Of a DNA stretch of 64,000 nucleotides, positions 16,083-31,963 are shown one piece after another (the first letter of the stretch is position 1; each line of letters starts with the position of its first letter). This DNA is from a bacterium (GTDB lineage: Bacteria; Patescibacteriota; Minisyncoccia; Phycocordibacterales; UBA9973). The stretch spans positions 4,684-68,683 of the forward strand of contig JBAXSP010000003.1 of assembly GCA_037130655.1 (NCBI GenBank), written 5' to 3'. The notes under the pieces were generated by a model that made no database searches, had not been told where the DNA came from, and worked only from the letters and a program-made list of their open reading frames with translations. The translations under genes were made by a program, and so were the position numbers.

Positions 16083-19000
16083 ATGAAATTTTTTCTCAAA
16101 AAACTATTTAATTTTTCTTTCACAAACTTGAATAAAGGTTTTGTATTTTTTGTATCTTTTTATTTGCTCATCTCTACACTAATCCCTTCTTCTGTTTTCG
16201 CTACAGCTGGAGTACCTACCATTTTACATCATCAAGGGAGACTTCTCGATTCATCAGGGAATCTTCTTGGTGGTTCTGGGACAAATTACTGTTTTCGTTT
16301 TTCACTTTACGATGATGCAAATGTTGGAAGTGGTACAAAGCTTTGGCCATCGGGGACTCCAAGTAAGATGACTGTCAATGTTAAGAATGGTGTTCTTAAT
16401 GTAGATATTGGTGATACTAGCGCCGGTGGTGATTTACTTGATTTTGATTTTAATTCTACTGATGAGGTTTATTTGAATATTGATGTTGCTGCTTCGGTGG
16501 CTAATTCTTGTGCAAGTGTCACTTCTTTTGAAACACTTGGCCCACGTCAACGTGTTGTGTCTTCTGGTTATGCAATTAATTCAAAAATGGTTGGTGGTTT
16601 TATTCCATCACAAACCCCTACTGGAAGCAATATTCCGGTGTTGAATGCTGGTGCACTTAATTTGGCTGGTGCAGTGAATGCTGGAGGTCTTACTTTGGGC
16701 ACTGGTGCATCAGTGACAGGAATTCTAAATTTGAAAAATTCTACAAATAGTAATACTATTGCAATTCAATCTGGTGTTCCAACTTCATCATATACACTCA
16801 CGCTCCCAAACGATGATGGTACTCCAAATCAATTTTTACAAACAGATGGTAATGGTGTACTCACATGGACATCTATTAGCGGGGGAGGAGACGCACTCAC
16901 TGCAAACTCACTCGGTCAATTTGCTACAACTACATCTGCACAACTTGCTGGTATAATCTCAAACGAAACGGGTTCAGGTGCACTTGTTTTTGCTAATACT
17001 CCGACTTTTATTACTCCAGTACTCGGAGTAGCCACCGCGACGTCAATCAATGGCCTTACAATTTCTTCATCGACAGGTACATTAAATATTGCAAATGGTT
17101 CGACATTAGCAACAAGTGGTGCTAATGCAATTACGTTTACTTCAACAGGTACAACAAATGTGACACTTCCAACAAGTGGCACACTCGTTTCTTCTGTTAG
17201 TAGTGGTAATGGTGTTTCAGCAACCAATACAGCTGGAGCATTGTCATTTTCTCTCGGTGCCATCACTCCAACAACCGTCAATGGCATTACCTTCTCAGGT
17301 TCATCAACACCAACCCTTGCGGTGACTGGTACGTCTTCAATCTCTGGAACAAACACTGGTGACCAAACAACAATCTCTGGAAATGCCGGTACTGCAACTG
17401 CATTACAAACTGCACGAACAATTGGTGGTGTCTCATTTGATGGAACCGCAAATATTACCGTTGCATCTGCAACCGGTGGTTTCGCTATTTCAGGAGGGAA
17501 CTTAACCACGACTGGTTCTGGACAATTTGGTGCTGCTTCTGGAACAAACGGACAAATCACCCTCACTGGTTCAACCTCAGGTACTGGAATTATTAAAGTG
17601 AATCCAACTGCTGGTGCGGGAATTGTTTTCCAACTTCCATCAGCTAATGGATCAAACGGCAATGTCTTAACAACTGATGGCAATGGGGTCACTTCATGGA
17701 CTTCAGCTTCAACTGGAACCGTGACTGCTGTTTCAGTGGTATCTGCAAACGGTATTTCTGGTTCTTCATCAGGTGGTGCAACGCCAGCTCTCACCCTTTC
17801 TCTCGGTGCCATCACTCCAACAACCGTCAATGGCATTACCTTCTCAGGTTCATCAACACCAACCCTTGCGGTGACTGGTACGTCTTCAATCTCTGGAACA
17901 AACACTGGTGACCAAACAACAATCTCTGGAAATGCCGGTACTGCAACTGCACTTCAAACTGCACGTTCAATTTATGGAAACAACTTTGACGGAACCGCAA
18001 ACCTTGCACAAATCATTGCCTCAAACTTTGGTGGTACTGGCAATGGCTTTACCAAATTCTCTGGCCCAACAACATCAGAAAAAACCTTCACCCTTCCTGA
18101 TGCTTCAGCAACACTCCTCTATGCCGGTGGTGCACTTGGTACTCCAAGTTCCGGTGTTGCAACAAATCTAACTGGTACTGCTGCAGGTCTTTCAATTGGA
18201 GGCAATGCGGCAACCGTTACCAATGCAACATTAACAACTGGTCTCACTGTTAACACCGGAACGGTTACCCTTGTTGGAAATGCAGCAAACACTTCGGTGC
18301 TCACGATCGGTGCTGGAGCAGTTTCAGTTTCTGGAACAAACACTGGTGACCAAACAACAATCTCTGGAAATGCCGGTACTGCAACTGCATTACAAACTGC
18401 ACGAACAATTGGTGGTGTCTCATTTGATGGAACCGCAAATATTACCGTTGCATCTGCAACCGGTGGTTTCGCTATTTCAGGAGGAGATTTAACACTTGGT
18501 TCAAATAGCTTAACAATGACAGGATCGCTTGGTTCTACTGGTGCAAGATTAACTAAAGGTTGGTTTACTGACTTACAAGTAACTAATGCGATTAATGGAT
18601 CTATTACAGGAAATGCCGGTACTGCAACCGCGTTACAAACCGCACGAACAATTAACGGGACTTCATTTGATGGAACAAGTAATATTACTGTAACTGCCGA
18701 TGCAGGAACACTTACTGGTGCAACATTAAATTCCGGAGTTACTGCTTCTTCTCTCACTTCTGTTGGTACATTAACAGGGCTGAGTGTTTCGGGTACAACA
18801 TCTATTAACGCAAGTGCTTCAACAAACACTACAGCGATTGGGACAGGTACCACTACCGGAGCCGTGACTATTGGTGGTGGCGCAAACACTGTAGCAATAA
18901 ATACGACATCATGGGATATATCATCAACTGGTGTAGCGACAGGACTAACAGGTATTACTTCTTCTGGGTCAATTACTCTTTCAGGTCTTGGTGGAGGTGG

Positions 19001-21233
19001 AACACAATGTGTTAAAACAGACAATGTTGGATTACTTTCAGCCGGGTCTTGTGGTGGTGGAGGTACTTGGGGTTCAATTACTGGCACCCTTTCTTCTCAA
19101 ACTGATTTACAAAGTGCTCTTGATGCAAAGCTTGGTCTTGGTGGTTCAGTGTACACAACAACATCAGGTACAGGACTCGCGCTTTCAACTTCTAGTCTCA
19201 CAACAGGTACATTAGTAGATTTACAAATTACTGGTACCACTGTCGCAGGAGCAGGACAAATTGGATTGAATCTTTCTAGTGCTGGAAGTAATAATGGTAG
19301 TGGAATCACAACATACGGTGCAAAGTTTTCTAATACACATACAGGTACTACTTCTACTAATGTTGGTTTGTATACCACCGCATCTGGTGGAACCACTAAT
19401 CTTGCTTTGAATGTGGATGCTGGTCAGGCACTTATTGGCGGTACTGCACTCACTTCTGGAACACTCGCAAAATTAAATATCGTAAGCACAATGTCTTCAA
19501 CAGGGTCTACTACAGCAATTGCTGGAATTCATGGTGAGTACACATTGAGTAATGGTGGTACTGCAGGGTACGTCCAAGTAGGGAATCGTTTTGTTATAAA
19601 TAACACACCAACAACAAATGCGAATACTGCGGTGAACACCATTATCCGTTCGATAGATAACACTTCACTCGCAAATACATTACGAGGTATTGAAATTGTT
19701 TCAAACGCTGGAAGTAATACAGCAGGAACAAATACAGGTCTCCGTTCAACGGGGGCAACATTTGGTGTACAGGCAATCACCAGTGGTCTTGCGGGAGGTG
19801 TATCTTTGCCTGCTGGTTTGTATGCAGAAAATACTGGTACGACACAAGGAGATGTTGCAAGATTTTATACTGGAACAATGACTTCAGCACCATCAATGCT
19901 TAATGTGTATCAAGATACTTCAACCTTTACTGGAGCAGGACTTCTTATGGATATGGCTGCCGGAACAGGGACATTCTCAGGTAACTTCCTTGATTTCAAA
20001 AATGGAAGTGTCCAAAAATTTAAAGTTACTAGTGCTGGAAATACAAGTGTTAATCTTGCTACTTCGACAAACAATTTTGCAGTTTGTCACGAAACAAATG
20101 GCGCTGGCGTGGATCAGCTCAAAGACTGTAGTGGTGCCCCAACTGCCGACTATGCTGAAATGTATCCTGTAGAAACAGGTGCCACATTTGGTGATGTTGT
20201 TGTTACTGGTTCAGAGATGGTAGACACGTATGATACTGTTAACGGTGGAGTCGATTGGACTAAAATAAAAGGTCAGGTCACAAAACTTGTTAAGTCTACA
20301 AAAAGTTACCAAAGCAATGTCATCGGTATCGTATCAGACAACTCAGGAGATTTTACTACCGCTGGTCATAATATAAAAGATGCGGACAATCCAATGGCAA
20401 TTGCACTTAATGGACGTGTCCCAGTAAAGATTTCATCAAACTCAGAAGCTATATATCCAGGTGATTATATTACTACTTCAGATGAAGCCGGCAAGGCGAC
20501 AAAAGCTACTGAAGCAGGAACGGTGATCGGTAAAGCGCTTGAATTTTGGACACCTGGTTCTGGTAAAGCAACTGTAATGGTATACATTGAGCAGGGATAT
20601 TATGATGGTAACGGTACGGTGCAAAAAACATTTAACGGACTTACATTCTTTAATGCAGACGCATCGTTTATGAGTAAGGTAACGTTTGGTGCTCAGGCAG
20701 AGTTTGTTGTGCCACCGCTCTTCAATGCTGATACTGCTGGATTTGCAATTATAAAACAAGGTGCCAAGAAAGTTGAAGTAACCTTTGATACACCATATAT
20801 TGCAACTCCAATTGTAAATACTAGTATTTCATTTGAAGATACAGACAATATAGATGAAGCGAGTGCAACGCAATTCTTTGCAGATGATATTAAGTCAATT
20901 GTTATAAATAAGAGTAAGACTGGTTTTGCTATTATTTTGAATAAAAATGCTCCACGAGATATACGCTTCTCATGGATGGCACTCCAAGTAAAAAATCCAA
21001 AAGTATTTGAAAGTACTATTCCAGGATTAATAATTGAACCCCCAACACTTAATCAAAATTCTAATGCAAACCAAGAACAAGAATCTAATCAAAACTCAAA
21101 TACAGAACAAGAATCTAATCCTAACCAAAACTCAAATACAGATCCAAATCCAGATTTAGATCAAAACCAAAATCAAGAATCTAATTCTAATCAAAACACA
21201 GAACCAGCTCCAGAATCAATTCCCTCAGAATAA
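16083..21233 (+). CDS. giant (1716 aa) surface protein made of phage-tail-fibre-type repeats, with Asn/Gln-rich C-terminal tail
   Basis: signal/TM N-terminus; many copies of ~45-aa unit [23 protein letters not shown](G/N)G(V/T)[10 protein letters not shown] (Phage_fiber_2-like motif, from memory); C-terminal NQNSN.. low complexity. Confidence 0.7.
17251..18483 (+). repeat. intragenic near-perfect DNA duplications (17251-17410 ~ 17801-17960; 17347-17497 = 18333-18483; 57-nt core GGAACAAACACTGGTGACCAAACAACAATCTCTGGAAATGCCGGTACTGCAACTGCA three times)
   Basis: read directly. Confidence 0.75.
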
Positions 21234-21265
21234 AAAACCTCTCAAAATTTTGAGAGGTTTTTTAT
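21234..21265. terminator. bidirectional terminator between convergent giant gene and Bro-N/Hsp20 gene
   Basis: perfect palindrome AAAACCTCTCAAAATTTTGAGAGGTTTT flanked by A/T tracts. Confidence 0.8.
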
Positions 21266-21279
21266 TTTAAATAAATTAT

Positions 21280-22077
21280 TTATATTGATTTTATTTTTAT
21301 AAATCTTTTTTTGTTGATATCGATTTTTTGTAGGGTGATAGTGATGAGTCCTTGAAATTCAGTAGCTGTCATATTATCTACATCAACAAGTGTTGGTAAT
21401 TCTATCCTTCTTGAAAAGGTACCCCATTGTAATTCTTTCAAAATATAATCAGGTTCATATATTTTTTTAGTGTTTACATAAGTGTTAAAATTTTCTGCAA
21501 CTCGTACACCTGCAATAGTCAATGTTTGCATACTTATGCTTAAAATTAATTTACTTGGATCACAACCAGGGAGCATAAACTGAACAACAATTTCATTTTT
21601 ATTTTCGTAAATATCAGCAGGTGCTTCTAGTGTTGTGGATAACTCATTTTCTTTAAAAGTAGATAAGTCATCAAACGGTGAATTCGTGTCAACTTCTTCC
21701 GATCTGAAATTTGTGTTTTTTACAGAATTTTGGACGTCAACGTGTTCGAACCATGTCTTGAAAGCAGGGATGCTTGTCGGGTCTATAATCTTTATAATTT
21801 TGATCAAAGTGTCGGCATCTGCTACATCAGCCAGATAACTTTTACCGTCAGATGATTGGAGTTTCAGTTGGTTACATTCACTAACCAACTGGTTCTGTGT
21901 ATTTTTTAAACGATTTTTTAATGTCTTCCAATAATTACGAGCGTCGACACTTTCAGTAAGTACTCCGATTATATCAGTAATAGAAAAATACCAGCGTGCT
22001 CTTTGGTTATCCCATACACGACGAATTTGCTTATCTTCCGCATCAGAAATACTAATTTTTTGTTTGATTTTCGACAT
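21280..22077 (-). CDS. Bro-N (DinD/antirepressor-like) domain fused to C-terminal Hsp20/alpha-crystallin domain
   Basis: N-terminus RRVWDNQRARWYFSITDIIGVLT...NYWKTLKNRL...SIPAFKTWFEHV (Bro-N pattern); C-terminus ADIYENKNEIVVQFMLPGCDPSKLILSI...LTIAGVR...WGTFSRRIELPTLVDVDNMTATEFQGLITITLQK (sHSP ACD pattern). Confidence 0.6.
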   Translation of the reverse strand: MSKIKQKISISDAEDKQIRRVWDNQRARWYFSITDIIGVLTESVDARNYWKTLKNRLKNTQNQLVSECNQLKLQSSDGKSYLADVADADTLIKIIKIIDPTSIPAFKTWFEHVDVQNSVKNTNFRSEEVDTNSPFDDLSTFKENELSTTLEAPADIYENKNEIVVQFMLPGCDPSKLILSISMQTLTIAGVRVAENFNTYVNTKKIYEPDYILKELQWGTFSRRIELPTLVDVDNMTATEFQGLITITLQKIDINKKRFIKIKSI

Positions 22078-22213
22078 ACGTTGATACGTATAGTATATAA
22101 CATTCTAGACAAAATATTGTATTTTGATGTAGAAAAAATAATTAAAAAATAAGTGTTAAATTTATTAAAATTATTATTTACTGATATTTTTTACTACGTT
22201 ATACTATATATAC

Positions 22214-25200
22214 ATGAACAAATCAGTAACAAAAATAATAAAATTTTCTACAATTTTTTTTGTAGTTAGTTTTTTATTTTTTGGAACTACTCATAGAGCT
22301 GAAGCCGCTACTCGAACTTGGACAGGTACAACAAGTGGTGCTTGGTCTGTTGCAAGTAACTGGGGAGGGACAGCACCGGTGACTGGTGACGATCTCGTTT
22401 TTCCAAGTGGTGCATCAAACTTATCTAACACAAATGATCTAACTGAAAATACAATTTTCAACTCAATCACTTTTTCTGGTAGTGGTTATACATTGTCGGG
22501 TAATCCAATTATTCTTGGGGCGGGACTTGCAGGTATTACAGATAGTGCTGCTTCAGGTGGAAACACAATTGCACTTGATGTGCGTCTCGACGTTACTCGA
22601 GATATTATTGTTACGAACACAGCAGAGAGCTTAACTATTAGTGGTCGCATCGCTGGTGTTGGTGGTATCAACAAAGAAGGGACTGGTAAATTAATTTTAT
22701 CTGGTGCCAATACTTTTGGTGGAACTTTAAAGATTAACGTTGGGGTTGTTAATGCTCGTAATGACAGAGCGCTGGGAACAATTGCGGCTGGTACTGAAGT
22801 TGTTGGTGGTGCAGCACTTGAATTGCAAGGAACAATAAACATTGGTTATGAAGCGTTGACATTGCGTGGGTATGGAGTTTCAAATACTGGTGCTTTGAGA
22901 AATATAAGCAACAATAATACTTTTGCAGGATTGATAACACTTGTTTCGGCTGGTGGCACTGAAATAACATCTGACTCAGGGACATTAACCATAACCGGTG
23001 GTATGACCGGTGCATTTCCTTTAGTGATAGACGGCGCAGGTAATGTTACTTTTTCAACGACACCTATTGCTACATCTACTGGTACTGTTACAAAAAATGG
23101 CGTAGGAACATTGACTTATAATTTTCCAAACACTTATACAGGACTTACAACAATCAATACTGGGACTCTTGCGTATGGAGTAGACAATGCAATATTGTCA
23201 GGTGCTATTACTGTTACTGGTGGTACGCTTGATATCGGGACATATTCTGATATGGTGGGTACGGTAACTCTAGGTACTCTTGATTTAGCAACTGGTACCA
23301 TAACAGGAACTTCTGGAGTTCTTAGTAGTGCTACCTATACAGTCTATAACGGTACTATTAGTGCAATTATTGCAGGTGATGTTCCTGGGGGAACAACTCA
23401 GTTAACTAAATCAACTGTTGGGACAGTGACATTGACTCGTCCTAATCAATACACTGGTGCCGTGCTAATTTCTCTGGGCATTTTGAAAATTCAAAATAGT
23501 ACATCTTTGGGTACTATCGATGGTGCTACCACTGTTACTGCTGGTGCAACACTTCAAGTTGATGGAAGTAGTTTGTCAGTTCCAGAGTACATTACATTTT
23601 CTGGCACAGGACATTTGTATACTGGCGCTATTAGAAATTCAACTGGCAACAACACATTGACCGGCTTACTTACTCTTGGTGCTGCGGCGATGATCAAGTC
23701 TGATGTAAGTACAACCTTGACTGTCGACACAAAAGGACTCTCAGTAACAACATTAGGATTAAGCATTGCTGGTGATGGCAATACTACTTTTACTTCCTCT
23801 GCACCTATTTATGGAACTACAGCGACTTTAACCAAAGATGGAGCTGGTACAGTAACGATACAATCTTTCAGTAACTTTACCGGTACTACTACTATTAATG
23901 GCGGAGTGTTAAATTTGAATGGTTCTGGCGCAATACCGCTTTCAACCACTATTGCCATAAATGCTGGAGCAACTTTAACACTTGATAATAGTACAACGAG
24001 AGTGCTTGATCGCATTGCTGATACTGCAGCAATAACAATGAACGGTGGTAATTTTAATTTTACAGGTTCAAACACTGCTTCAACAGATGTACTTGAAACA
24101 GCAGGAGTTTTGACAGCAGGTATTGCAACACAATCAGGTGATAATAAGATTACTATTACACCAGGGAGTGGAGGATCATCAATCATGCGTTTTGCTTCAC
24201 TTACTCGTACTGCAGGTTCCTCTCTTTTGTTTAGAGGTACTTCATTTGGTTCAACTCCAGGTGCAAATATATCAACACTACTATTTAGTACAGCACCGAC
24301 ATTACTAGGGGATGATGGTGCCCCAAACACCCCAACGTTGAGTATTATTCCAGGTGCTTTTGGAGACAGTTCTTTGACTGGAACGGGGACCGATATGGTT
24401 ACCTATGGTCAAGGTAATAACAACGGATTGCGCTTACTCAATGGTGCTGGATTTAGTGGAGAATATACTACTGATCTCACAATCACTAATGCGAATATAA
24501 AATTAACCGCAAGTACTGTAGCATCTACGTCTCAAATTAATTCATTGATCCTGAGTTCAAGTGCGACCATTACAGATGCAGGAAGTGCTCAAAACATAAC
24601 GTTAACATCTGGTACTATCTTAAATCTAGTTAGTAATGCTACTTTAGCTGGGGCAAATACTACACTAACAATGGCAAGTAATGTGGAAGGAATCATTCGT
24701 ACTGTTAGTGACGTTAGTTTATCTGCAATACTGGCTACAACTGGAGGTGTGACAAAAAGCGGGACAGGTACATTAACTATTGCTACTGCACAAACGTATA
24801 CAGGTCTTACTTCAATTAATGAAGGTACTTTGTTGTACGGGTTAAATGATTCCATTTCTTCAGGTAATGTTACGGTTAATGGTGGTACTTTTAATATTGC
24901 TAGTTTTACTGATACAGTTGGTGCAGTAATTTTACAAAAGGGAACTATTACTGGTACTTCTGGAGTGCTCACTGGAACTTCATATAGTTTTCGAGAGGGA
25001 ACTGTTAGTGCTATTATTGCGGGTGCTGTTGCTGTTACTCGTGTTGCTACAAATACTTCGTCAGATAGTGTCGTTATATTAAGTAAAAATAATACTTATT
25101 CCGGAGCTACTACTATAACGAGTGGTATTTTGAAACTTGGCGCAGCTGGTGATGGTATAAATACACCTCTTGGTACAACTGCCGGTGGAACAACAATTGC

Positions 25201-28200
25201 AAACATTGGAGCTCTTGATTTGAATGGTTATACACTCTCAACTGCCGAGGCAATAACTTCTATGAACGGATTAGGTTTTGGTCCTGGGGCTACTGTTGCT
25301 AATGGAAATAGTAATATGGGCGCACTTATGAATAGCTCAAATACTGCAGTGAGTTATAGTGGAGCGATTACACTTGCTGCTGCATCACGTATAAATGCTG
25401 ACTACGGAGCCCTGACAATTAGTAGTGCTATCTCTGGAGCGTTTACTTTAACTATAGGAGGATTTAGTAATACTGAACTTTCTGGAGTTATTGGCTCAGG
25501 TGCTGTTGCTATAACTAAAGATGGAATCGGGGATCTTCTTCTTTCTAATGGTAACTCATCATATACAGGTGTAACTACTGTCAGTGTCGGTACGCTTAAA
25601 ATTGGTGCCGTATCGGTTGGTGGTACAAACTCTCCACTAGGTACAGCAGGAGGTGCAACATCAATTACTGCTGGTGCTCGTCTTGATTTAAATGGATTTT
25701 CACTTGGAATAGCAGAACCTATAACAAACTTAAATGGTGTTGGGTATGGACTTGGAGATTTTGCAAGTGGTGCGATTATCAATAGCTCTGCTTCTGCGGT
25801 AACATTTACGGGGTTAATTACTCTCGGATCTGCTTCTACTATTAAAGCAAATTCTGGTGACATCAATTTAACTGCCGCGGGTACTATCACAGGATCTGGG
25901 TTTGGGTTAACTCTTGGAGGAACAGGAGTAGGAACTATTTCAAGTATTGTTGGTACCGGTGCTGGTACTGTTACAAAAATAGATACAGGAACGTGGACAC
26001 TCTCTGGTGTGAGTACTTATACCGGTGCTACAGCAATTAACCTCGGAACATTTAAGTTTGGTGTGAGTGATACTGCTGGAGGTGGACCACTCGGAACAGT
26101 TGCTGGTGCAACTACTGTATACAGTGGAGCTGTCTTGGATCTAAACGGTTTTCTCTCTAGTACTTTAGCTGAGCCACTAACTATAAACGGACGAGGAATT
26201 AGTGATGGAGGCGCGCTTATTGGAAGCAATGGAACATACACCGGTACTATAGCTTTAGCTACTGATTCTCGTATTACAAATGCTTCTGGAACAATGACGG
26301 TAACAGGAGCTGTTAGTGGTGCGTTTTTCCTTTATGTTAGTGGAGCAGGTAATGTTACTTTTAGTACGGCTATTCCTACCTCAGGTCTTTCCCTGACAAA
26401 ACAAGGAGCTGGTACATTTACCGTAACAGGTACTAATTTATATACGGGAGAAACTCGTATTGACGCAGGTACATTTGCGTATGCGGCAGGAGGGACGGCA
26501 GTTCTTGCGGGTACAAACTTAATGATGAAGGGAGGTACTTTTAACAATGCTACAAGTGTGGATACTATTGGTACGGTTACACTTGTTGGTGGAACTATTA
26601 CCAATACAGCAACAGCTTTAACAGGAACCGCTTATACACTTGAGAACGGAACAATTAGTGGAGTTATAGCTGGAGCAGTTGCTGTTACAAAAAACACAAA
26701 CAACACTGTTACTTTGTCTGGTGTGAACACTATTAGTAGTACGATAACAATTAATGCGGGAACACTTACTATTAGTGGTAGTGGTAGTGCTACATCGGTG
26801 ACTGGCGTTACTATTAACTTGGGCGGGACATTGACACTAGATAATGGTACAACTGCTGTTGCAGATAGATTAAATGGTTCTGGAGGAACAAACGCGATTG
26901 TTATTACAATGAACGGCGGAAATTTAAATTTTATCGGTAATACTTCTGGTACTTCTGCAGAAACAATGGGTCAGTTGCTATTGTCTTCAGGTCACAATAT
27001 TGTGACGGTAACTCCAGGTGCTGGTGGATCAACAACACTTACTTTTGCATCTAATCCTGGATTAAGTAGGACTGCTGGAGCAACAGTTCTCTTTCGTGGG
27101 ACAAGTTTCGGTGCTACTCCTGCAGCGAACGTTTCAACTTTGATGTTTTCTAATGCACCGACTCTCACTGGCGCAGGAGGAGCCGCAAGTTCTACAACGA
27201 TTAGTGTTATTAAGGGTGCGTATGGTGATAGTTCTCTCTCTGGAACAGGTAGTGATATGGTTACTTATAACGTAGGTAATACTAACGGCTTGCGTTTGCT
27301 TAATGGTGCTGGATTTTCTGGAGAATATGCAGGTGATTTAGCTACTGCAAATGCAAACGTAAAACTAACTGCAGATAGAGTAGCGGTAGCCACAAACACA
27401 AACTCACTTATTTTAAATGGTTTCAATATTACTAACCCAGGAGGCGCCATTACTATACCTATGTCATCTGCATCACTTGCAGGAAATATTTTAATAAACT
27501 CAGCCACAAATATCGCTGGTGCAAACACTACTCTTGGTATTACTACTTTTGAACTTAATATATTAGCTACAAACACTTCAACTATTTCTGCGATTATCGG
27601 TACAGCCACAACGGGATCAGTTACACTAAGTGGAACAGGAAATGTCACACTTAGTGCTGCAAATCTTTATACGGGTACTACATTTATAAATGGTGCAACA
27701 CTTACGGCTGGTGCAAGTAATGTTATCTCAAGTGGAGGTGTGACTATCGTGGGTGGCACATACAATCTTGCGGGTAACTCTGATACTGTCGGAGCGCTTT
27801 CTATTAACGCAGGGACTATCACAACTGGAGCGGGGACTCTGACAGGGAACGGTACATTTAGTACGGTTGCTAATAACAACGTCACTTCAATAATTACAGG
27901 GAACTTGGGTCTTGGGGCGAACGCGACATTTACCATTAATGATGGACTTATGGATAATGATGCACTGATAACAGCTGTCATTAGTGGTGCATTTACTTTT
28001 GCAAAAGCAGGTTCCGGTGTATTGGAACTTTCTGGTAGTAATACTTATTCTGGGGCACTGACTATTAGTGGAGGAACAATTCGTCTTGGTGCCACTGGTG
28101 ATGCAACTAACACACCGCTCGGTACAACAGCTGCCGGTACAACAGTATCAAGTGGGTTCTCTCTTGATTTAAACGGATATACTTTAGGTACATCAGAAGC

Positions 28201-31200
28201 ACTTACTATAAGTGGTACAGGTATTGGGGCTTTTGGAGCTCTTTTGAATACGTCTTCAACTGCGGTGACATATAGTGGACTTATTACTCTCGGAGCATCA
28301 GCTACTATAACTTCTGGTTATGGTGATATTACTTTATCAAACACAGGAAGTATGACTGGTACTGGATTTGCTTTGACTTTGAACGGTGCTGGTAACGGAT
28401 CACTCGCAACCCAAGTGAATACTTCAACTGCTGGGTCACTTGTGAAGAATGGTTCAGGTGTATGGACTATTTCAGGTGATGGTAACTATACCGGAGTAAC
28501 TACTGTTACTGCGGGTACGTTAAAACTTGGAGCAGCTGGTGGCTCAACAAACAATCCACTTGGTACAACAGGTGGAGCAACAACTGTTGCCAGTGGTGGA
28601 ATATTAGATTTGAACGGCTTTACTCCTGGGACATCTGAACCTTTGACAATAAACGGAACTGGACTTACATCAAACGCAACCGTCGGTGCACTTATAACTA
28701 GCTCTGGTAGCTCAACATCATTTAATGGTCCGCTTACTCTTGGTGCGAATGCTCGTATTGCAAACTATGGTAGTGGAGTATTTACTTTGACTGGTGCAAT
28801 TTCTGGAAACTTTGCTTTGACAACAGTAACTGTTGGTGGAATTACGCAGTCTTCTGCCAGTGTTTGGTCAGGTACTGGAACATTAATAAAAGAAGGTTCA
28901 GGTACACTGATACTAGCAGGTCAAAATACGATGAGCGGTGCCATGACAGTAAGTACTGGTGTGTTGCAACTTGGAGCAAGTGGGGGAGCTACAAATACAC
29001 CACTTGGTACAAATGCTGGAGGTGTAACTGTGTCTTCGGGTGCAGTGCTCGATCTATCTACATTTAACCTTGGCGGAGCATCAACATATGAGACATTGAA
29101 CCTAAGTGGTACAGGTATAAACAATGGTGGAGCACTCACTAGTTCGGCATCATCAGGTACCACTAACTTTGGAGCCATGACTGTTACAGCAAACTCTAGA
29201 GTGGTGAATTCTGGTGCGGGTACTATTGCTTTTACTGGTACAGTAACCATTGCAAACACTATTAACCTTGGTATTGGTGGAAGTGGACCAACAACAATTT
29301 CAGGAGCATACGGCGCAAGTGCAACTACTGCAACACTGACCAAATGGGATGCTGGGACTTTGATTTTGAGTGGTATTAATCCTGTCACAGGATTGTATCG
29401 TGTGAATGGTGGTACTTTAAAAATTAGTGATGCCAATAGTTTAGCAGTAGCACCAGTGACTGTTGCCGGGGGGACTTTTGATTTCAATGGAGTAACGGAC
29501 ACAATTGGTATTGTTAGTTTAATCAGTGGTACCGTGACAGATTCTAATGGAACTCCTGGTATTCTAAGTATTGCTACAAACTCAATTTTTGAAAGTGGTA
29601 CTGTCAGTGGTGTGCTCTCTGGTACCACACTTGCAATTGCAAAAAACACAGGAGGTACCGTTACATTTAATAAATCGAATACTTATACAGGAACAACAAC
29701 AATCAATGCTGGAACAATTCAATATTTAGCTAGTAATATTATGGCTGATACCAGTAACATTACTGTGACCGGTGGTATTTTGGATATTGGTACTAATTCT
29801 GATACTGTCGCAACTGTTACTCTTACTAGTGGAGCTATAACTGGAAGTAGTGGAATCTTAACTGGAAGTTCTTATGCTGTAACAAGTGGAACTATTAGTG
29901 CAATTTTAGCTGGTGCAGTGAACTTGACCAAAACCACAGCCGGAACCGTAACGCTTTCAGGTGTTAATACGTATACTGGAATAACAACAATAAGTGGTGG
30001 AACTTTAAGCGTTGCTACTATTGGGAATGGTGGTGCTGGTGGTAGTAATCTTGGGAATGCTTCAAACGCTGCAGCTAATATAGTATTTAATACTGGTACA
30101 GGAACACTGCAATATACTGGTGCAACAGCATCAACTGATCGTGCGTTCACGACGACCGCAGCTATCACTATGCAGTTTGATATTACTAATCCTAACACTG
30201 TACTTACTTGGGGTGGTGTTGGTACAACAACCACAGCACCATTAACTAAAATTGGACAAGGTACATTAAAATTTTCTGTAGCACAAGGGTATACTGGATT
30301 AACTACAGTACTCGCAGGAACCTTGCAATATGGTGCTTCTGATACATTATCTACGGGTGCAGTAACGGTAATTAATGGTACGTTTGATATAAATAATTTC
30401 TCTGATAGCGTTGGTATTATTACACTGCAAAATGATGGTCAGATAATAGATTCTGGTGGAACAACAGCAGTATTAACAACCACAGGAACAATGGCCGCAC
30501 AAAGCGGTACAGTAAGTGCTGTTATTGGTGGATCAACTGCTACCGGTATTACCAAGAGTACTAGCGGTAGAGTAATTCTTTCAGGAAATAATACTTTTAC
30601 CAGTACTGCGATTGCCCTAAGTGCTGGATATTTGAATCTCCGTCATAATAATGCATTGGGTGCGTCTGGTACTACACTTGCTACAACTATTACATCTGGT
30701 GCTGTTCTTGAGCTACAAAACACTATTACCTTACCAAGCACGAAGACAATCACCGCTAACGGTACTGGGGTAAATAATAGTGGTGCTGTTCGAAATATAC
30801 TTAATTCTAATGCAATTGGCGCTACGGTGACACTTGGTTCAAGTAATACACGTATTAATTCTGATAGTGGAACACTGACCGTCGCTGCAGTGTCAGGTAC
30901 CGCAACCAACCTACTTGTCGGTGGTGCTGGAGATATTGCTATCACTGGCGCGATTGCTACAACCAGTGGAACGCTTGCCAAAGATGGTGTTGGTACGTTG
31001 ACCTTAACTGGAACCAATACATATACCGGCACCACCACATTAACAGCAGGTACTACTATTGCTAATGCTACAGCTGCTCTTGGTACTGGGGCTTCTTCGA
31101 ATACACTTATTTTTAATGGGGGAACACTGAAAGCTTCAGGAACAATTACTTCTCCCTCTGCCCGTGCTGTTACACTTACTGCAACAGCTATAATTGATAC

Positions 31201-31963
31201 AAATGGTAATAGTGTTAGTTTTGCTGGTACCATGGGTTCTGCTGGAGGACTGACTAAGAATGGTTCAGGTACCTTGACGCTTACAGGAGTGACTACTCTT
31301 GGTAGTGATCTTACTATCTCTGCTGGTACCTTTGTAGCACCAACAACGCTAAATATAACTGGAGATTTTAACAACAGTGGTACATATACACACAGCAATG
31401 GGACGGTAACTTTTACTCCTGATATTACTGGAATAGTAAATTTCACTGGTAGTTCTAATACAACTTTTTATAATGCAACTGAAACTACTGCTGGCTCAAC
31501 TGTTCAATTTAAGGCAGGTAATACATATACGTTTGCCCATACCCTTACACTAACCGGTAGTAATGGAAACCCTATTTCAATAAATTCTGATACACCAAGT
31601 TCTCAATGGTTTATGACTTTATCAGGTTCTGCTTCTATTTCTTACGTAACAGTTCGAGATTCTGGCTGTAGTGGTGGTAATAATGTTTCAACAACAAGTA
31701 GTACTATATATAATTATGGTAATAATGGTTCGTGCTGGTCCTTTATAGTATTTGGTGGAGGTGGTGGTAGTAGTGAAGCGCCGGCGAGTTCACCAGATGC
31801 TCAGCAGGGCGGTGGTACCGGCGGCGGCAATGGAGGTGGTAATGATGGATCTAACACTGGCGGATCTAATGGCGGATCTAATGGCAGAGACAGTGGGGGG
31901 GATCTTGGATTTTTGTATCAAGAAAATAAATTAAATCGTTTCCGCACACTTCTCTATGTTTAA
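22214..31963 (+). CDS. giant (3249 aa) cell-surface protein built from autotransporter passenger-type beta-strand repeats (Pfam PATR family); Gly-rich C-terminus
   Basis: signal peptide; dozens of units like GTGTLTLSGANTYTG(A/T)TTINAGTL / LDLNG(Y/F)TL..(S/A)E.LT(I/L)NG.G. Confidence 0.75.
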   Translation: MNKSVTKIIKFSTIFFVVSFLFFGTTHRAEAATRTWTGTTSGAWSVASNWGGTAPVTGDDLVFPSGASNLSNTNDLTENTIFNSITFSGSGYTLSGNPIILGAGLAGITDSAASGGNTIALDVRLDVTRDIIVTNTAESLTISGRIAGVGGINKEGTGKLILSGANTFGGTLKINVGVVNARNDRALGTIAAGTEVVGGAALELQGTINIGYEALTLRGYGVSNTGALRNISNNNTFAGLITLVSAGGTEITSDSGTLTITGGMTGAFPLVIDGAGNVTFSTTPIATSTGTVTKNGVGTLTYNFPNTYTGLTTINTGTLAYGVDNAILSGAITVTGGTLDIGTYSDMVGTVTLGTLDLATGTITGTSGVLSSATYTVYNGTISAIIAGDVPGGTTQLTKSTVGTVTLTRPNQYTGAVLISLGILKIQNSTSLGTIDGATTVTAGATLQVDGSSLSVPEYITFSGTGHLYTGAIRNSTGNNTLTGLLTLGAAAMIKSDVSTTLTVDTKGLSVTTLGLSIAGDGNTTFTSSAPIYGTTATLTKDGAGTVTIQSFSNFTGTTTINGGVLNLNGSGAIPLSTTIAINAGATLTLDNSTTRVLDRIADTAAITMNGGNFNFTGSNTASTDVLETAGVLTAGIATQSGDNKITITPGSGGSSIMRFASLTRTAGSSLLFRGTSFGSTPGANISTLLFSTAPTLLGDDGAPNTPTLSIIPGAFGDSSLTGTGTDMVTYGQGNNNGLRLLNGAGFSGEYTTDLTITNANIKLTASTVASTSQINSLILSSSATITDAGSAQNITLTSGTILNLVSNATLAGANTTLTMASNVEGIIRTVSDVSLSAILATTGGVTKSGTGTLTIATAQTYTGLTSINEGTLLYGLNDSISSGNVTVNGGTFNIASFTDTVGAVILQKGTITGTSGVLTGTSYSFREGTVSAIIAGAVAVTRVATNTSSDSVVILSKNNTYSGATTITSGILKLGAAGDGINTPLGTTAGGTTIANIGALDLNGYTLSTAEAITSMNGLGFGPGATVANGNSNMGALMNSSNTAVSYSGAITLAAASRINADYGALTISSAISGAFTLTIGGFSNTELSGVIGSGAVAITKDGIGDLLLSNGNSSYTGVTTVSVGTLKIGAVSVGGTNSPLGTAGGATSITAGARLDLNGFSLGIAEPITNLNGVGYGLGDFASGAIINSSASAVTFTGLITLGSASTIKANSGDINLTAAGTITGSGFGLTLGGTGVGTISSIVGTGAGTVTKIDTGTWTLSGVSTYTGATAINLGTFKFGVSDTAGGGPLGTVAGATTVYSGAVLDLNGFLSSTLAEPLTINGRGISDGGALIGSNGTYTGTIALATDSRITNASGTMTVTGAVSGAFFLYVSGAGNVTFSTAIPTSGLSLTKQGAGTFTVTGTNLYTGETRIDAGTFAYAAGGTAVLAGTNLMMKGGTFNNATSVDTIGTVTLVGGTITNTATALTGTAYTLENGTISGVIAGAVAVTKNTNNTVTLSGVNTISSTITINAGTLTISGSGSATSVTGVTINLGGTLTLDNGTTAVADRLNGSGGTNAIVITMNGGNLNFIGNTSGTSAETMGQLLLSSGHNIVTVTPGAGGSTTLTFASNPGLSRTAGATVLFRGTSFGATPAANVSTLMFSNAPTLTGAGGAASSTTISVIKGAYGDSSLSGTGSDMVTYNVGNTNGLRLLNGAGFSGEYAGDLATANANVKLTADRVAVATNTNSLILNGFNITNPGGAITIPMSSASLAGNILINSATNIAGANTTLGITTFELNILATNTSTISAIIGTATTGSVTLSGTGNVTLSAANLYTGTTFINGATLTAGASNVISSGGVTIVGGTYNLAGNSDTVGALSINAGTITTGAGTLTGNGTFSTVANNNVTSIITGNLGLGANATFTINDGLMDNDALITAVISGAFTFAKAGSGVLELSGSNTYSGALTISGGTIRLGATGDATNTPLGTTAAGTTVSSGFSLDLNGYTLGTSEALTISGTGIGAFGALLNTSSTAVTYSGLITLGASATITSGYGDITLSNTGSMTGTGFALTLNGAGNGSLATQVNTSTAGSLVKNGSGVWTISGDGNYTGVTTVTAGTLKLGAAGGSTNNPLGTTGGATTVASGGILDLNGFTPGTSEPLTINGTGLTSNATVGALITSSGSSTSFNGPLTLGANARIANYGSGVFTLTGAISGNFALTTVTVGGITQSSASVWSGTGTLIKEGSGTLILAGQNTMSGAMTVSTGVLQLGASGGATNTPLGTNAGGVTVSSGAVLDLSTFNLGGASTYETLNLSGTGINNGGALTSSASSGTTNFGAMTVTANSRVVNSGAGTIAFTGTVTIANTINLGIGGSGPTTISGAYGASATTATLTKWDAGTLILSGINPVTGLYRVNGGTLKISDANSLAVAPVTVAGGTFDFNGVTDTIGIVSLISGTVTDSNGTPGILSIATNSIFESGTVSGVLSGTTLAIAKNTGGTVTFNKSNTYTGTTTINAGTIQYLASNIMADTSNITVTGGILDIGTNSDTVATVTLTSGAITGSSGILTGSSYAVTSGTISAILAGAVNLTKTTAGTVTLSGVNTYTGITTISGGTLSVATIGNGGAGGSNLGNASNAAANIVFNTGTGTLQYTGATASTDRAFTTTAAITMQFDITNPNTVLTWGGVGTTTTAPLTKIGQGTLKFSVAQGYTGLTTVLAGTLQYGASDTLSTGAVTVINGTFDINNFSDSVGIITLQNDGQIIDSGGTTAVLTTTGTMAAQSGTVSAVIGGSTATGITKSTSGRVILSGNNTFTSTAIALSAGYLNLRHNNALGASGTTLATTITSGAVLELQNTITLPSTKTITANGTGVNNSGAVRNILNSNAIGATVTLGSSNTRINSDSGTLTVAAVSGTATNLLVGGAGDIAITGAIATTSGTLAKDGVGTLTLTGTNTYTGTTTLTAGTTIANATAALGTGASSNTLIFNGGTLKASGTITSPSARAVTLTATAIIDTNGNSVSFAGTMGSAGGLTKNGSGTLTLTGVTTLGSDLTISAGTFVAPTTLNITGDFNNSGTYTHSNGTVTFTPDITGIVNFTGSSNTTFYNATETTAGSTVQFKAGNTYTFAHTLTLTGSNGNPISINSDTPSSQWFMTLSGSASISYVTVRDSGCSGGNNVSTTSSTIYNYGNNGSCWSFIVFGGGGGSSEAPASSPDAQQGGGTGGGNGGGNDGSNTGGSNGGSNGRDSGGDLGFLYQENKLNRFRTLLYV

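What the first reader, a model, noticed from the sequence alone, without database searches (positions are those of the whole stretch)
21280..22077. Bro-N (DinD/antirepressor-type) domain fused to a small heat-shock (alpha-crystallin) domain
This is a single 265-aa ORF on the strand opposite to the two giant adhesin genes. Residues ~15-120 follow the Bro-N pattern: ARWYFSITDIIGVL ... NYWKTLKNRL ... SYLADVADADTLIKIIKIIDPTSIPAFKTWF. Compare Bro-N gepwFvakDvakaL ... seeglyrLi..sr.peakkFkkWv. After a linker, residues ~150-265 are an unmistakable Hsp20 alpha-crystallin domain: ADIYENKNEIVVQFMLPGCDPSKLILSI ... TFSRRIELPTLVDVDNMTATEFQGLITITLQK. Bro-N modules are DNA-binding or antirepressor domains of phages and damage-inducible DinD. 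sHSPs are ATP-independent holdases. I do not know this fusion as a described architecture. It could be a stress-sensing regulator or a phage-derived or defence-related protein, and it sits in the middle of the accessory surface-protein island.
Basis: partly seen in the sequence, partly recalled or inferred. Interest (0 to 1): 0.55.

Follow-up and report, generated by a model that had tools for sequence, protein, structure and literature searches.

The report
Small heat-shock protein with Bro-N head
A real, conserved protein of tiny uncultivated (CPR/Patescibacteria) bacteria joins a phage-type Bro-N nucleic-acid/antirepressor domain to a complete small heat-shock protein, and it always sits between two giant surface-protein genes, which suggests a stress-linked regulator or dedicated helper of those giants.

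Summary
Window 21280-22077 (-) is one 265-aa ORF with two confidently folded domains joined by a disordered acidic linker. Residues ~15-122 are a Bro-N domain. Residues ~151-252 are an alpha-crystallin domain, followed by a conserved C-terminal I-K-I tail, so the C-terminal half is a complete bacterial-type sHSP. It is not a frameshift or chimera: about 58 close homologues and about 55-65 clusters at 50% identity keep the same single-ORF architecture. Public annotation calls them only "Hsp20 family protein", because Pfam Bro-N is sub-threshold in most members. The Bro-N half is 50% identical (E 7e-34) to proteins that pass Pfam Bro-N. New finding: in 11 loci checked, the gene lies on the opposite strand between two giant ORFs. 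Three further loci are partly informative and agree. The downstream giant is homologous wherever that flank was compared (9 loci). The Bro-N half is the better conserved half (61% vs 44%). Some lineages have lost the alpha-crystallin domain while keeping the Bro-N domain, and in two of three a C-terminal [I/V]-K-I-K-S-I tail, at the same locus. Best reading (inferred, ~0.4): an oligomeric, Bro-N-centred nucleic-acid-binding regulator tied to the giant genes, with the sHSP part providing oligomerisation or stress sensing. It is a new variant of a known kind.

The parts
21280..22077 (-). Complete CDS of the Bro-N/sHSP fusion protein (265 aa plus stop)
   Evidence: ORF list. Identical protein P0001 in public data. 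Domain coordinates verified by translation.
21742..22035 (-). Bro-N domain core, aa 15-112. The final helix of the fold runs on to about aa 122.
   Evidence: Pfam Bro-N is full-length but sub-threshold. 50% identity, E 7e-34, to P0061, which passes Pfam Bro-N. PADLOC PDC-S13 E 5.7e-35 and PHROG 15286 E 9e-25. AF2 model pLDDT 88.7, pTM 0.82. Foldseek BFVD top hits include several Bro-N / antirepressor / 'repressor domain' proteins, prob 1.0, TMq 0.5-0.58. Mean pairwise identity in the family is 61%.
21628..21741 (-). Disordered acidic/polar linker, aa 113-150. It takes the place of the usual hydrophobic sHSP N-terminal region.
   Evidence: pLDDT below 50 for aa 123-147. In the family it shows 18% identity, length 19-51 aa, 4% F/W/Y/M, 19% D/E and 36% S/T/N/Q.
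21322..21627 (-). Alpha-crystallin domain (ACD), aa 151-252
   Evidence: Pfam HSP20 35 bits against 20.8. PDB sequence hit 3w1z E 2.6e-9. AF2 gives a beta-sandwich with pLDDT about 85-91. Foldseek PDB top 40+ hits are sHSPs, E 3e-10, TM per target about 0.7-0.8. The F-x-R-x-I-x-L-P motif is present in 38/41 and G-L-[LIV]-x-I in 41/41 members.
21283..21321 (-). C-terminal extension, aa 253-265 (DINKKRFIKIKSI). The I-K-I at 21292-21300 (aa 260-262) is a candidate sHSP I/V-x-I/V anchoring motif.
   Evidence: [ILV]-x-[IV] is conserved in 40/41 family members, 9 residues after the last ACD strand. A related tail is kept in ACD-less variants P0059/P0060/P0126.
21232..21265 (.). Shared bidirectional intrinsic terminator between the fusion gene and the convergent giant gene. 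It is a perfect 20-nt palindrome CCTCTCAAAATTTTGAGAGG (21238-21257) flanked by an A run and a T run.
   Evidence: Read directly from the sequence. The scan tool missed it because the hairpin has no 3-nt loop.
22078..22213 (.). 136-bp AT-rich divergent intergenic region shared with the PATR giant gene. It has perfect 9-nt inverted repeats TATAGTATA (22089-22097) and TATACTATA (22200-22208), each just upstream of one start codon (-10-like boxes). No Shine-Dalgarno sequence is visible.
   Evidence: Equivalent regions of 7 other loci share only TATAAT-type boxes and no conserved operator.
22214..31963 (+). Divergently transcribed giant surface protein (3249 aa, N-terminus reads as a signal-peptide-like hydrophobic stretch, 15 PATR repeats). 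It is a conserved neighbour.
   Evidence: Pfam PATR E 1.3e-46. Homologues at 64-71% identity lie in the same position in L002, L004, L010, L012 and L089. A giant ORF occupies this position in all other loci where that flank is available, except L009, which has only a 328-aa ORF there.
16083..21233 (+). Convergent giant protein (1716 aa, no Pfam family). It is a conserved neighbour whose C-terminal 500-700 aa are homologous in all 9 loci that were compared.
   Evidence: no Pfam hit. tblastn gives 41-70% identity in L002, L004, L006, L007, L008, L009, L010, L012 and L090. It is absent from the 77 loci that carry only DinD-like Bro-N proteins.

Best explanation
SHOWN: the gene encodes a genuine two-domain protein. 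The variable, disordered N-terminal region of an otherwise complete bacterial-type small heat-shock protein has been replaced by a folded Bro-N domain on a flexible acidic linker. The sHSP part comprises the alpha-crystallin domain with its signature motifs and a C-terminal I-x-I tail. The family is confined, as far as named records show, to CPR/Patescibacteria (Minisyncoccia, Paceibacterota, Nomurabacteria and 'Saccharibacteria' MAGs). Its gene is locked between two giant surface-protein genes on the opposite strand. INFERRED mechanism: the ACD and I-x-I tail assemble the protein into dimers and higher oligomers, as in ordinary sHSPs. This would display several Bro-N heads. The Bro-N heads carry a strongly conserved basic helix (D-A-R-N-Y-W-K-x-L-K-N-R-L-K) and a beta-hairpin, and would bind nucleic acid or a DNA-bound protein. 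The protein would thereby control expression of the adjacent giant genes from the shared divergent promoter region. The sHSP scaffold would make that binding depend on oligomeric state. Heat, or titration by unfolded protein such as unexported giant precursors, would shift the oligomer and release or engage the Bro-N heads. This is a feedback analogous to the way E. coli IbpA couples aggregate load to repression of its own and rpoH mRNA. The Bro-N domain is the indispensable part and the ACD is a modulatory module.
For: Architecture. Family size and constancy: about 58 full-length homologues and about 55-65 full-length representatives at 50% clustering among 1.84 billion proteins. Locus linkage: the same sandwich occurs in the window, L002/3, L004/5, the P0055 place, L006, L007, L008, L010, L089, L092 and L093. 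The downstream giant is homologous in all 9 loci compared, and the upstream PATR giant in five. Genes further out differ between loci: TIM here, PfkB in L008, HMA/DsbD in L006 and L092, RsmD/YchF at P0055. CPR paralogues of the DinD-like kind (L044, L077) have no giants. Bro-N-centred function: the Bro-N half is more conserved than the ACD (61% vs 44%). ACD-less derivatives remain at the same locus: L012 (180 aa) between both giants, and P0059/L090 (164 aa). The linker lacks the aromatic and hydrophobic residues of substrate-binding sHSP N-terminal regions. The orientation is divergent with a 78-171 bp shared promoter region. Precedent for Bro-N as a DNA-binding or regulatory module: PMC8096241 and PMC8263062. 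Precedent for an sHSP acting as a titratable nucleic-acid-binding regulator: IbpA, PMC10410725 and PMC10474464.
Against: No nucleic-acid binding has been shown for this Bro-N subfamily. No conserved operator-like motif was found in the eight intergenic regions, only -10-like boxes. The recognition-helix region is nearly invariant from CPR to Bacteroidota and archaea. That argues for a universal ligand (DNA or RNA backbone, or a conserved protein) rather than a locus-specific operator. The upstream giant is not the same family in L006, L007 and L008. Conserved synteny in a narrow clade can be inheritance rather than function. An intact ACD with all sHSP motifs and the I-x-I tail is also what a working chaperone would have.
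Confidence: 0.4

Rival explanations
1. Dedicated holdase for the giant surface proteins. The sHSP part keeps the 1700-3900-residue precursors unfolded and export-competent before Sec translocation. The Bro-N domain acts as a protein-protein adaptor, as in antirepressors, rather than as a nucleic-acid binder.
For: The ACD is intact, with sHSP signature motifs and the I-x-I tail. There is a strict neighbourhood with giant genes. Bro-N proteins are often annotated as antirepressors, which are protein binders.
Against: ACD-less variants persist at the same locus. The ACD is the less conserved half. The linker lacks hydrophobic substrate-binding character. The Bro-N sequence is almost the same as in DinD-like proteins of organisms that have no such giants, so it is unlikely to recognise the giants specifically.
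Confidence: 0.22
2. General stress sHSP that is targeted to the nucleoid or to RNA by its Bro-N head. It would protect DNA- or RNA-associated proteins during stress. The position between the giants is inherited gene order with no functional meaning.
For: The basic helix of the Bro-N domain is nearly invariant across phyla, which suggests a generic ligand. No operator motif was found. The sHSP module is complete.
Against: The outer flanks are rearranged while the trio is retained down to 33% identity. ACD-less variants are retained at the locus. No CIRCE heat-shock operator occurs in the window. This is a weak test.
Confidence: 0.2
3. Anti-phage defence, or a phage- or mobile-element-derived gene. 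The Bro-N head senses a phage component and the ACD acts as effector or oligomeriser.
For: The N-domain matches PADLOC candidates PDC-S13 and PDC-S04. The same Bro-N subfamily occurs on plasmids, in some viral contigs and fused to Fic.
Against: The PADLOC matches cover only the shared N-terminal 110 residues of 286-292-residue models. PDC systems are untested guilt-by-embedding candidates. The fusion itself is absent from phage, plasmid and IMG/VR collections. No defence genes are seen next to it in any locus, and its position is fixed rather than variable.
Confidence: 0.07
4. Artefact: two genes joined by a sequencing or assembly error, or a chance ORF.
For: None beyond the general caution that applies to MAG sequence.
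Against: The same single-ORF architecture occurs in about 58 homologues and about 55-65 representative clusters from many samples and sources. The linker is in frame and variable in length. Both domains fold confidently.
Confidence: 0.01

Closest known systems
Bacterial/archaeal/fungal small heat-shock proteins (e.g. S. pombe Hsp16.0 3W1Z, Xanthomonas HspA 3GLA, M. jannaschii Hsp16.5 1SHS, E. coli IbpA/IbpB)
   Same: Alpha-crystallin beta-sandwich (Pfam GA passed; Foldseek E 3e-10). F-x-R-x-x-x-L-P and G-x-L-x-I motifs. A long beta5-beta7 loop of the non-metazoan type. A C-terminal I-x-I tail 9 residues after the last strand.
   Different: The N-terminal region is not a short, hydrophobic, disordered segment. 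It is a 110-120-residue folded Bro-N domain plus an acidic, aromatic-poor linker. The N-terminal half is more conserved than the ACD, the reverse of ordinary sHSPs. The genomic position between giant surface-protein genes is fixed.
PDC-S13 / 'DinD-like' Bro-N proteins (e.g. P0061, about 280 aa; PADLOC PDLC04920)
   Same: The N-terminal Bro-N domain is 45-58% identical, including the motif D-A-R-N-Y-W-K-x-L-K-N-R-L-K and the Q-L-K-x-x-S-D-G-K-x-Y hairpin.
   Different: Those proteins carry a DinD-like C-terminal region of about 170 residues that is weakly related to E. coli DinD (E 0.002). Here an ACD is in its place. They are spread over many bacterial and archaeal phyla, plasmids and some viral contigs, and are not next to giant genes. 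E. coli DinD itself does not share this N-domain detectably.
E. coli IbpA as a nucleic-acid-binding autoregulator (PMC10410725, PMC10474464)
   Same: An sHSP whose regulatory nucleic-acid binding is relieved when it is sequestered by aggregates. This is the functional analogy used for the proposed mechanism.
   Different: IbpA has no separate nucleic-acid-binding domain and acts on mRNA 5' UTRs. Here a dedicated folded domain is fused, and the target (DNA, RNA or protein) is unknown. There is no experimental evidence for the CPR protein.
Phage and viral BRO/antirepressor proteins (Bro-N + KilA-C, T5orf172 or other C-terminal modules)
   Same: An N-terminal Bro-N module combined with a variable C-terminal module. 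The fold matches predicted viral Bro-N and antirepressor structures. The domain-shuffling logic is the same.
   Different: The C-terminal partner is a chaperone-type ACD, and no such combination turned up in the 50,697 phage records or the 2.9 M IMG/VR contigs searched, which gave only N-domain or ACD hits. The gene is chromosomal and at a fixed position in CPR genomes, not in phage, plasmid or IMG/VR records.

Membership tests
Small heat-shock proteins (HSP20/alpha-crystallin, PF00011) | Alpha-crystallin domain detectable by the curated profile | tested here: met
   PF00011 at 35 bits against GA 20.8, aa 155-262, model 1-101/102. All 41 of 41 family members hit.
Small heat-shock proteins (HSP20/alpha-crystallin, PF00011) | Beta-sandwich ACD fold | tested here: met
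   AF2 pLDDT about 85-91 over aa 150-252. Foldseek PDB top hits are all sHSPs, E 3e-10, TM per target 0.62-0.82.
Small heat-shock proteins (HSP20/alpha-crystallin, PF00011) | C-terminal I/V-x-I/V motif used for oligomer assembly | tested here: met
   I260-K-I262. [ILV]-x-[IV] occurs in 40/41 members. Binding into the beta4/beta8 groove was not tested.
Small heat-shock proteins (HSP20/alpha-crystallin, PF00011) | Variable, largely disordered, hydrophobic or aromatic N-terminal region that binds substrate | tested here: not met
   It is replaced by a folded Bro-N domain (pLDDT 88.7, pTM 0.82) and a linker with 4% F/W/Y/M and net charge -5.
Small heat-shock proteins (HSP20/alpha-crystallin, PF00011) | Large dynamic oligomers and ATP-independent holdase activity; stress induction | not testable with these tools
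   Needs protein biochemistry and expression data. No CIRCE element was found in the window, which is only a weak hint.
Bro-N domain (PF02498) | Match to the curated profile above the gathering score | tested here: not met
   14 bits against GA 25.6, E 0.078, although the match is full length. Ten of 41 members reach E<0.01, best 3e-5.
Bro-N domain (PF02498) | Significant homology to proteins that do pass the profile | tested here: met
   50% identity, E 7e-34, to P0061. P0061, P0065, P0068 and P0064 pass PF02498 at 36-49 bits. Plasmid hits are annotated as Bro-N, BRO family or antirepressor.
Bro-N domain (PF02498) | Bro-N fold | tested here: inconclusive
   The best PDB structural match has E 0.3, so no related solved structure was found. 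Predicted viral structures named Bro-N, antirepressor or repressor domain are among the top hits, with probability 1.0 but modest TMq of 0.5-0.58 and E about 2e-3.
Bro-N domain (PF02498) | Nucleic-acid binding or antirepressor activity | not testable with these tools
   Literature treats Bro-N as a DNA-binding superfamily (PMC8096241). Nothing has been tested for this subfamily.
DinD family / PADLOC PDC-S13 | Full-length match including the DinD-like C-terminal region | tested here: not met
   Only model positions 4-110 of 286 match, whereas P0061 matches 4-277. There is no similarity to E. coli DinD (E 0.18).
DinD family / PADLOC PDC-S13 | Embedded in or next to defence systems (the basis of the PDC call) | tested here: not met
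   Neighbours are giant surface proteins, a beta-lactamase2/S11-like gene and housekeeping genes in every locus. PDCs are untested candidates.

The most novel reading that the evidence does not exclude
The protein is a new kind of proteostasis-coupled gene regulator. An sHSP oligomer would serve as a stress- or aggregate-titratable scaffold for DNA- or RNA-binding Bro-N heads. This would give reduced-genome CPR episymbionts a one-protein feedback loop that matches production of their giant host-attachment proteins to folding and export capacity or to temperature. The ACD-less derivatives, two of which keep the [I/V]-K-I-K-S-I tail, would then dock onto other sHSPs through that tail.
Probability: 0.2. 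Interest if true: 0.75.

Novelty: new variant of a known kind. Interest (0 to 1): 0.55.

Why it matters
sHSPs are usually described as an alpha-crystallin core flanked by variable, disordered arms, with the N-terminal arm binding substrates. A conserved family in which that arm is replaced by a folded nucleic-acid-binding or antirepressor-type domain, and in which this domain rather than the chaperone core is the more constrained part, would extend what the sHSP scaffold is used for. It would also give a natural counterpart to the recently found regulatory RNA binding of IbpA. For CPR/Patescibacteria it flags a small gene that is tightly linked to giant surface proteins, which are generally thought to mediate attachment to host cells. 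It is therefore a candidate handle on how these genes are controlled or matured. It also shows an annotation gap, because all members are labelled simply 'Hsp20 family protein'.

Tried and rejected
(1) Foldseek of the N-domain model against the PDB gave no significant match (best E 0.3). A profile search of PDB sequences found only sHSPs. No solved structure is therefore available to anchor the Bro-N fold.
(2) Direct comparison with E. coli K-12 DinD showed no N-terminal similarity. The 'DinD' label was downgraded to 'PDC-S13 subfamily Bro-N'.
(3) I looked for a conserved operator in the eight divergent intergenic regions using shared k-mers on both strands. Only TATAAT-like boxes are shared. 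The inverted repeats in the window's own region are AT-rich and overlap the -10-like boxes.
(4) A CIRCE heat-shock operator search with up to 3 mismatches found none in the window.
(5) A homologue search with the ACD half alone, meant to find the parental stand-alone sHSP, returned one fragment because of the word filter. The apparent stand-alone sHSP P0208 lacks a start Met and looks like a truncated fusion.
(6) Pfam, PHROG and PDB searches of the conserved C-terminal part of the downstream giant found nothing.
(7) Literature searches found no description of the fusion. The 2002 Iyer, Koonin and Aravind Bro-N paper is not in the held library.
The finding of only two full-length fusions among the 80 loci kept (L009, L010), plus one ACD-less variant (L012), is therefore a lower bound and not a rarity estimate.
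(9) The frameshift or chimera explanation was rejected.
Full report
**1. The observation**

It is convergent with a 1716-aa ORF (16083-21233, +) and divergent from a 3249-aa ORF (22214-31963, +).

A perfect 20-nt palindrome, CCTCTCAAAATTTTGAGAGG (21238-21257), lies between the two convergent stop codons. It is flanked by an A run and a T run and reads as a shared bidirectional terminator. The divergent intergenic region is 136 bp and very AT-rich. It carries -10-like TATACT boxes a few bases upstream of each start codon and no visible Shine-Dalgarno sequence.

**2. The C-terminal half is a complete sHSP**

- Pfam HSP20 matches aa 155-262 over the whole model at 35 bits, against a gathering score of 20.8.
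- NCBIfam archaeal and clostridial Hsp models match below their equivalog cut-offs.
- PDB sHSP sequences match down to E 2.6e-9.
- The AlphaFold2 model built on 41 family members gives a beta-sandwich with pLDDT around 85-91.
- Foldseek against the PDB returns almost only sHSP chains among the top 50, led by S. pombe Hsp16.0 (E 3e-10). TM-scores normalised to the target are 0.6-0.8.
- The classical motifs are kept: F-x-R-x-I-x-L-P in 38/41 members and G-L-[LIV]-x-I in 41/41.
- Nine residues after the last strand the protein ends in R-F-I-K-I-K-S-I. The [ILV]-x-[IV] there is conserved in 40/41 members. From established knowledge of sHSPs, this is the position and form of the I/V-x-I/V motif that docks into a neighbouring ACD to build oligomers.

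**3. The N-terminal half is a Bro-N domain, shown by transitive evidence rather than by Pfam alone**

Pfam Bro-N aligns over its full length (aa 17-110) but scores only 14 bits against a cut-off of 25.6. Only 10 of 41 family members reach E<0.01. This explains why the precomputed annotation of every homologue lists only PF00011 and why sources name them 'Hsp20 family protein' or 'IbpA'.

The other evidence is strong.

- aa 14-116 are 50% identical (E 7e-34) to P0061. P0061 and its relatives pass Pfam Bro-N at 36-49 bits.
- PHROG 15286 (E 9e-25) and the PADLOC models PDC-S13 (E 5.7e-35) and PDC-S04 (E 1.9e-29) match aa 5-114.
- Plasmid-borne relatives are annotated as Bro-N, BRO family or antirepressor.
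- A separate AF2 model of aa 1-125 is confident (pLDDT 88.7, pTM 0.82). Its topology is beta-beta-alpha-alpha-alpha-beta-beta-alpha-alpha.
- No solved structure resembles it (best E 0.3). Among predicted viral structures, several of the best matches are named Bro-N, antirepressor or 'repressor domain' proteins, with probability 1.0 and TMq 0.5-0.58.

The 'DinD' label needs care. The matching subfamily is what JGI calls DinD and PADLOC calls PDC-S13. E. coli DinD itself shares only its C-terminal region with those proteins (E 0.002) and has no detectable similarity to the N-domain studied here (E 0.18). PADLOC models the two types with separate HMMs.

**4. Not an artefact, and a real family**

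The two domains are joined by a 19-51-residue linker. It is disordered (pLDDT below 50 for aa 123-147), acidic, rich in S/T/N/Q and poor in aromatic residues (4% F/W/Y/M). A full-length pTM of 0.46 with high per-domain confidence indicates that the two domains have no fixed mutual orientation.

The word-indexed search found about 58 full-length homologues at 33-70% identity. The exhaustive HMM search of 1.84 billion cluster representatives found roughly 55-65 full-length representatives, 205-306 aa long with profile coverage of about 1-260. These come before the list degrades into single-domain hits.

Named records are all CPR/Patescibacteria: Minisyncoccia, Paceibacterota, Nomurabacteria and two MAGs labelled Saccharibacteria. 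The fusion is absent from 50,697 phage records, 72,556 plasmids and 2.9 million IMG/VR contigs. Those collections hold only one domain or the other.

**5. The surroundings: a conserved trio**

In 11 loci where both flanks could be seen, the gene lies on the opposite strand between two very large ORFs. These loci are the window, L002/L003, L004/L005, the P0055 place, L006, L007, L008, L010, L089, L092 and L093. The upstream giant is divergent, with a 78-171 bp shared intergenic region. The downstream giant is convergent. Their fusion proteins are as little as 33-41% identical to the window protein.

tblastn shows that the C-terminal 500-700 residues of the downstream giant are homologous (41-70% identity) in all nine loci that were compared. 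The upstream PATR-repeat giant is 64-71% identical in five of them.

Genes further out differ from locus to locus: triose-phosphate isomerase here, PfkB in L008, HMA/DsbD in L006 and L092, and RsmD/YchF at P0055. Small insertions are tolerated. A beta-lactamase2/S11-like gene sits in L002, L004, L010 and L089, and a Y1 transposase in L093. None of the 77 loci that carry only DinD-like Bro-N proteins, including CPR ones (L044, L077), contains either giant. The association is therefore specific to the fusion lineage and is more than whole-region synteny.

**6. Which half matters most**

Mean pairwise identity within the family is 61% for the Bro-N domain, 44% for the ACD and 18% for the linker. 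This is the reverse of ordinary sHSPs, in which the ACD is the conserved part.

The invariant residues cluster in the second helix (D45, R47, Y49, W50, K51, K54, R56) and in the beta-hairpin Q-L-K-x-x-S-D-G-K-x-Y. They are shared with DinD-like proteins from Bacteroidota, Proteobacteria and archaea at 45-58% identity.

Three natural derivatives have lost the ACD. The Nomurabacteria MAG locus L012 encodes a 180-aa protein (Bro-N, linker and a degenerate tail...K-I-T-K-M-R-T-I) exactly between homologues of both giants, with no room for an ACD. P0059/P0060 and P0126 are 164-aa proteins with the Bro-N domain, the linker and a preserved [I/V]-K-I-K-S-I tail. P0059 is again followed by the convergent giant.

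**7. Mechanism**

The following is shown: a Bro-N domain on a flexible acidic linker replaces the N-terminal arm of an otherwise canonical sHSP, and the gene is locked to two giant surface-protein genes.

My best-supported inference (about 0.4) runs as follows.

- The ACD and I-x-I tail provide dimerisation and higher oligomerisation.
- The Bro-N heads bind nucleic acid or a DNA-bound protein.
- The protein acts on expression of the adjacent giants.
- The state of the sHSP scaffold, set by temperature or by titration with unfolded protein, modulates that binding.

This borrows from the demonstrated behaviour of E. coli IbpA. IbpA represses its own and rpoH translation by mRNA binding until it is sequestered by aggregates (PMC10410725, PMC10474464). 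It also borrows from the general treatment of Bro-N as a DNA-binding or regulatory module (PMC8096241, PMC8263062).

Several things weigh against it.

- No binding data exist.
- No conserved operator was found.
- The near-invariance of the putative recognition helix across phyla points to a generic ligand rather than a locus-specific site.

The main rivals are these.

- A dedicated holdase for the giant precursors (0.22). The ACD-less variants, the lower conservation of the ACD and the non-hydrophobic linker weaken it.
- A general nucleoid- or RNA-tethered stress sHSP whose location is merely inherited (0.20).
- A defence or phage-derived function (0.07). It rests only on the N-domain's match to untested PADLOC candidates, and the fixed non-defence context and the absence from viral collections argue against it.

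**8. Comparison with what is known, and verdict**

The protein meets the tested sequence and fold criteria for an sHSP but fails the 'disordered hydrophobic N-terminal region' criterion. It meets Bro-N membership by homology but not by Pfam's own threshold. It is not a DinD/PDC-S13 family member, because it lacks their C-terminal region.

I found no description of a Bro-N/ACD architecture in the held literature. I could not query InterPro architecture tables.

I rate it a new variant of a known kind, with interest 0.55. It is a clean, conserved and unannotated architecture with an unexpected, strongly conserved link to giant surface proteins of CPR bacteria. Its function is inferred only, and the organisms are hard to work with.

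Noticed in passing
window 16083-31963; L002-L010, L012, L089, L090, L092, L093: Conserved three-gene arrangement: giant, then the fusion gene on the opposite strand, then a second giant. The downstream giant's C-terminal 500-700 aa (window protein aa ~1045-1680) are conserved at 41-70% identity across all loci compared, but match no Pfam, PHROG or PDB entry. This looks like an uncharacterised conserved domain of CPR giant proteins.
   Followed up: partly
L012:9962-10504 (+); L090:109-603 (+); proteins P0059, P0060, P0126: Natural variants of 164-180 aa have lost the alpha-crystallin domain. They keep the Bro-N domain, the linker and (in P0059/P0060/P0126) a C-terminal [I/V]-K-I-K-S-I tail, and they sit at the same locus next to the same giants. 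The retained tail suggests that it may dock onto another sHSP or has a role of its own.
   Followed up: partly
L002:6819-7772, L004:6801-7751, L010:5761-6711, L089:6378-7346 (all minus strand): A 316-322-aa beta-lactamase2/Peptidase_S11-like gene lies between the fusion gene and the downstream giant in four loci, but is absent from the window. It hints at a cell-envelope theme for the cluster.
   Followed up: no
window 22078-22213; equivalent regions of L002, L004, L006, L007, L008, L010, L089: Both divergent genes have TATAAT/TATACT boxes only 6-36 nt upstream of their ATG (6-16 nt for the fusion gene), with no Shine-Dalgarno sequence. This suggests leaderless or very short-leader mRNAs. In the window the two boxes form a perfect 9-nt inverted repeat (22089-22097 and 22200-22208).
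   Followed up: partly
window 21232-21265: A perfect 20-nt palindrome flanked by A and T runs serves as a shared bidirectional terminator for the convergent genes. The consensus terminator scan missed it because the hairpin has no loop of 3 nt or more.
   Followed up: yes
proteins P0062, P0182, P0149 (not in the window): The same Bro-N subfamily domain is combined with other modules: Fic (P0062, Pfam PF02661) and, in P0182, an N-terminal segment carrying a C-x5-R(S) motif typical of low-molecular-weight phosphatase/ArsC-type proteins (from memory, not tested). It is a promiscuous N-terminal or internal module.
   Followed up: no
L091:3761-4585 (E. coli K-12 dinD): E. coli DinD matches a PADLOC 'Type I specificity subunit' model over about 262 residues (E 3e-114) as well as PDC-S13. 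This implies that DinD-like regions occur fused to or embedded in HsdS proteins.
   Followed up: no
L093:3457-4119 (-): A Y1 (IS200-type) transposase gene is inserted between the fusion gene and the downstream giant in one locus. The trio tolerates insertions without being broken up.
   Followed up: no
window 32512-33825 (+) and 15164-15904 (+): A 437-aa protein with a cohesin domain (E 1.4e-7) lies just after the PATR giant. Triose-phosphate isomerase lies just before the other giant. The giant-gene cluster is therefore embedded among ordinary chromosomal genes.
   Followed up: no
protein P0138 (189 aa, not in the window): A family member in which only the first half of the Bro-N domain (up to the R-N-Y-W-K-V-L-K-N-R-L-K helix) precedes the ACD. 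It may be a degenerate or alternative short form.
   Followed up: no
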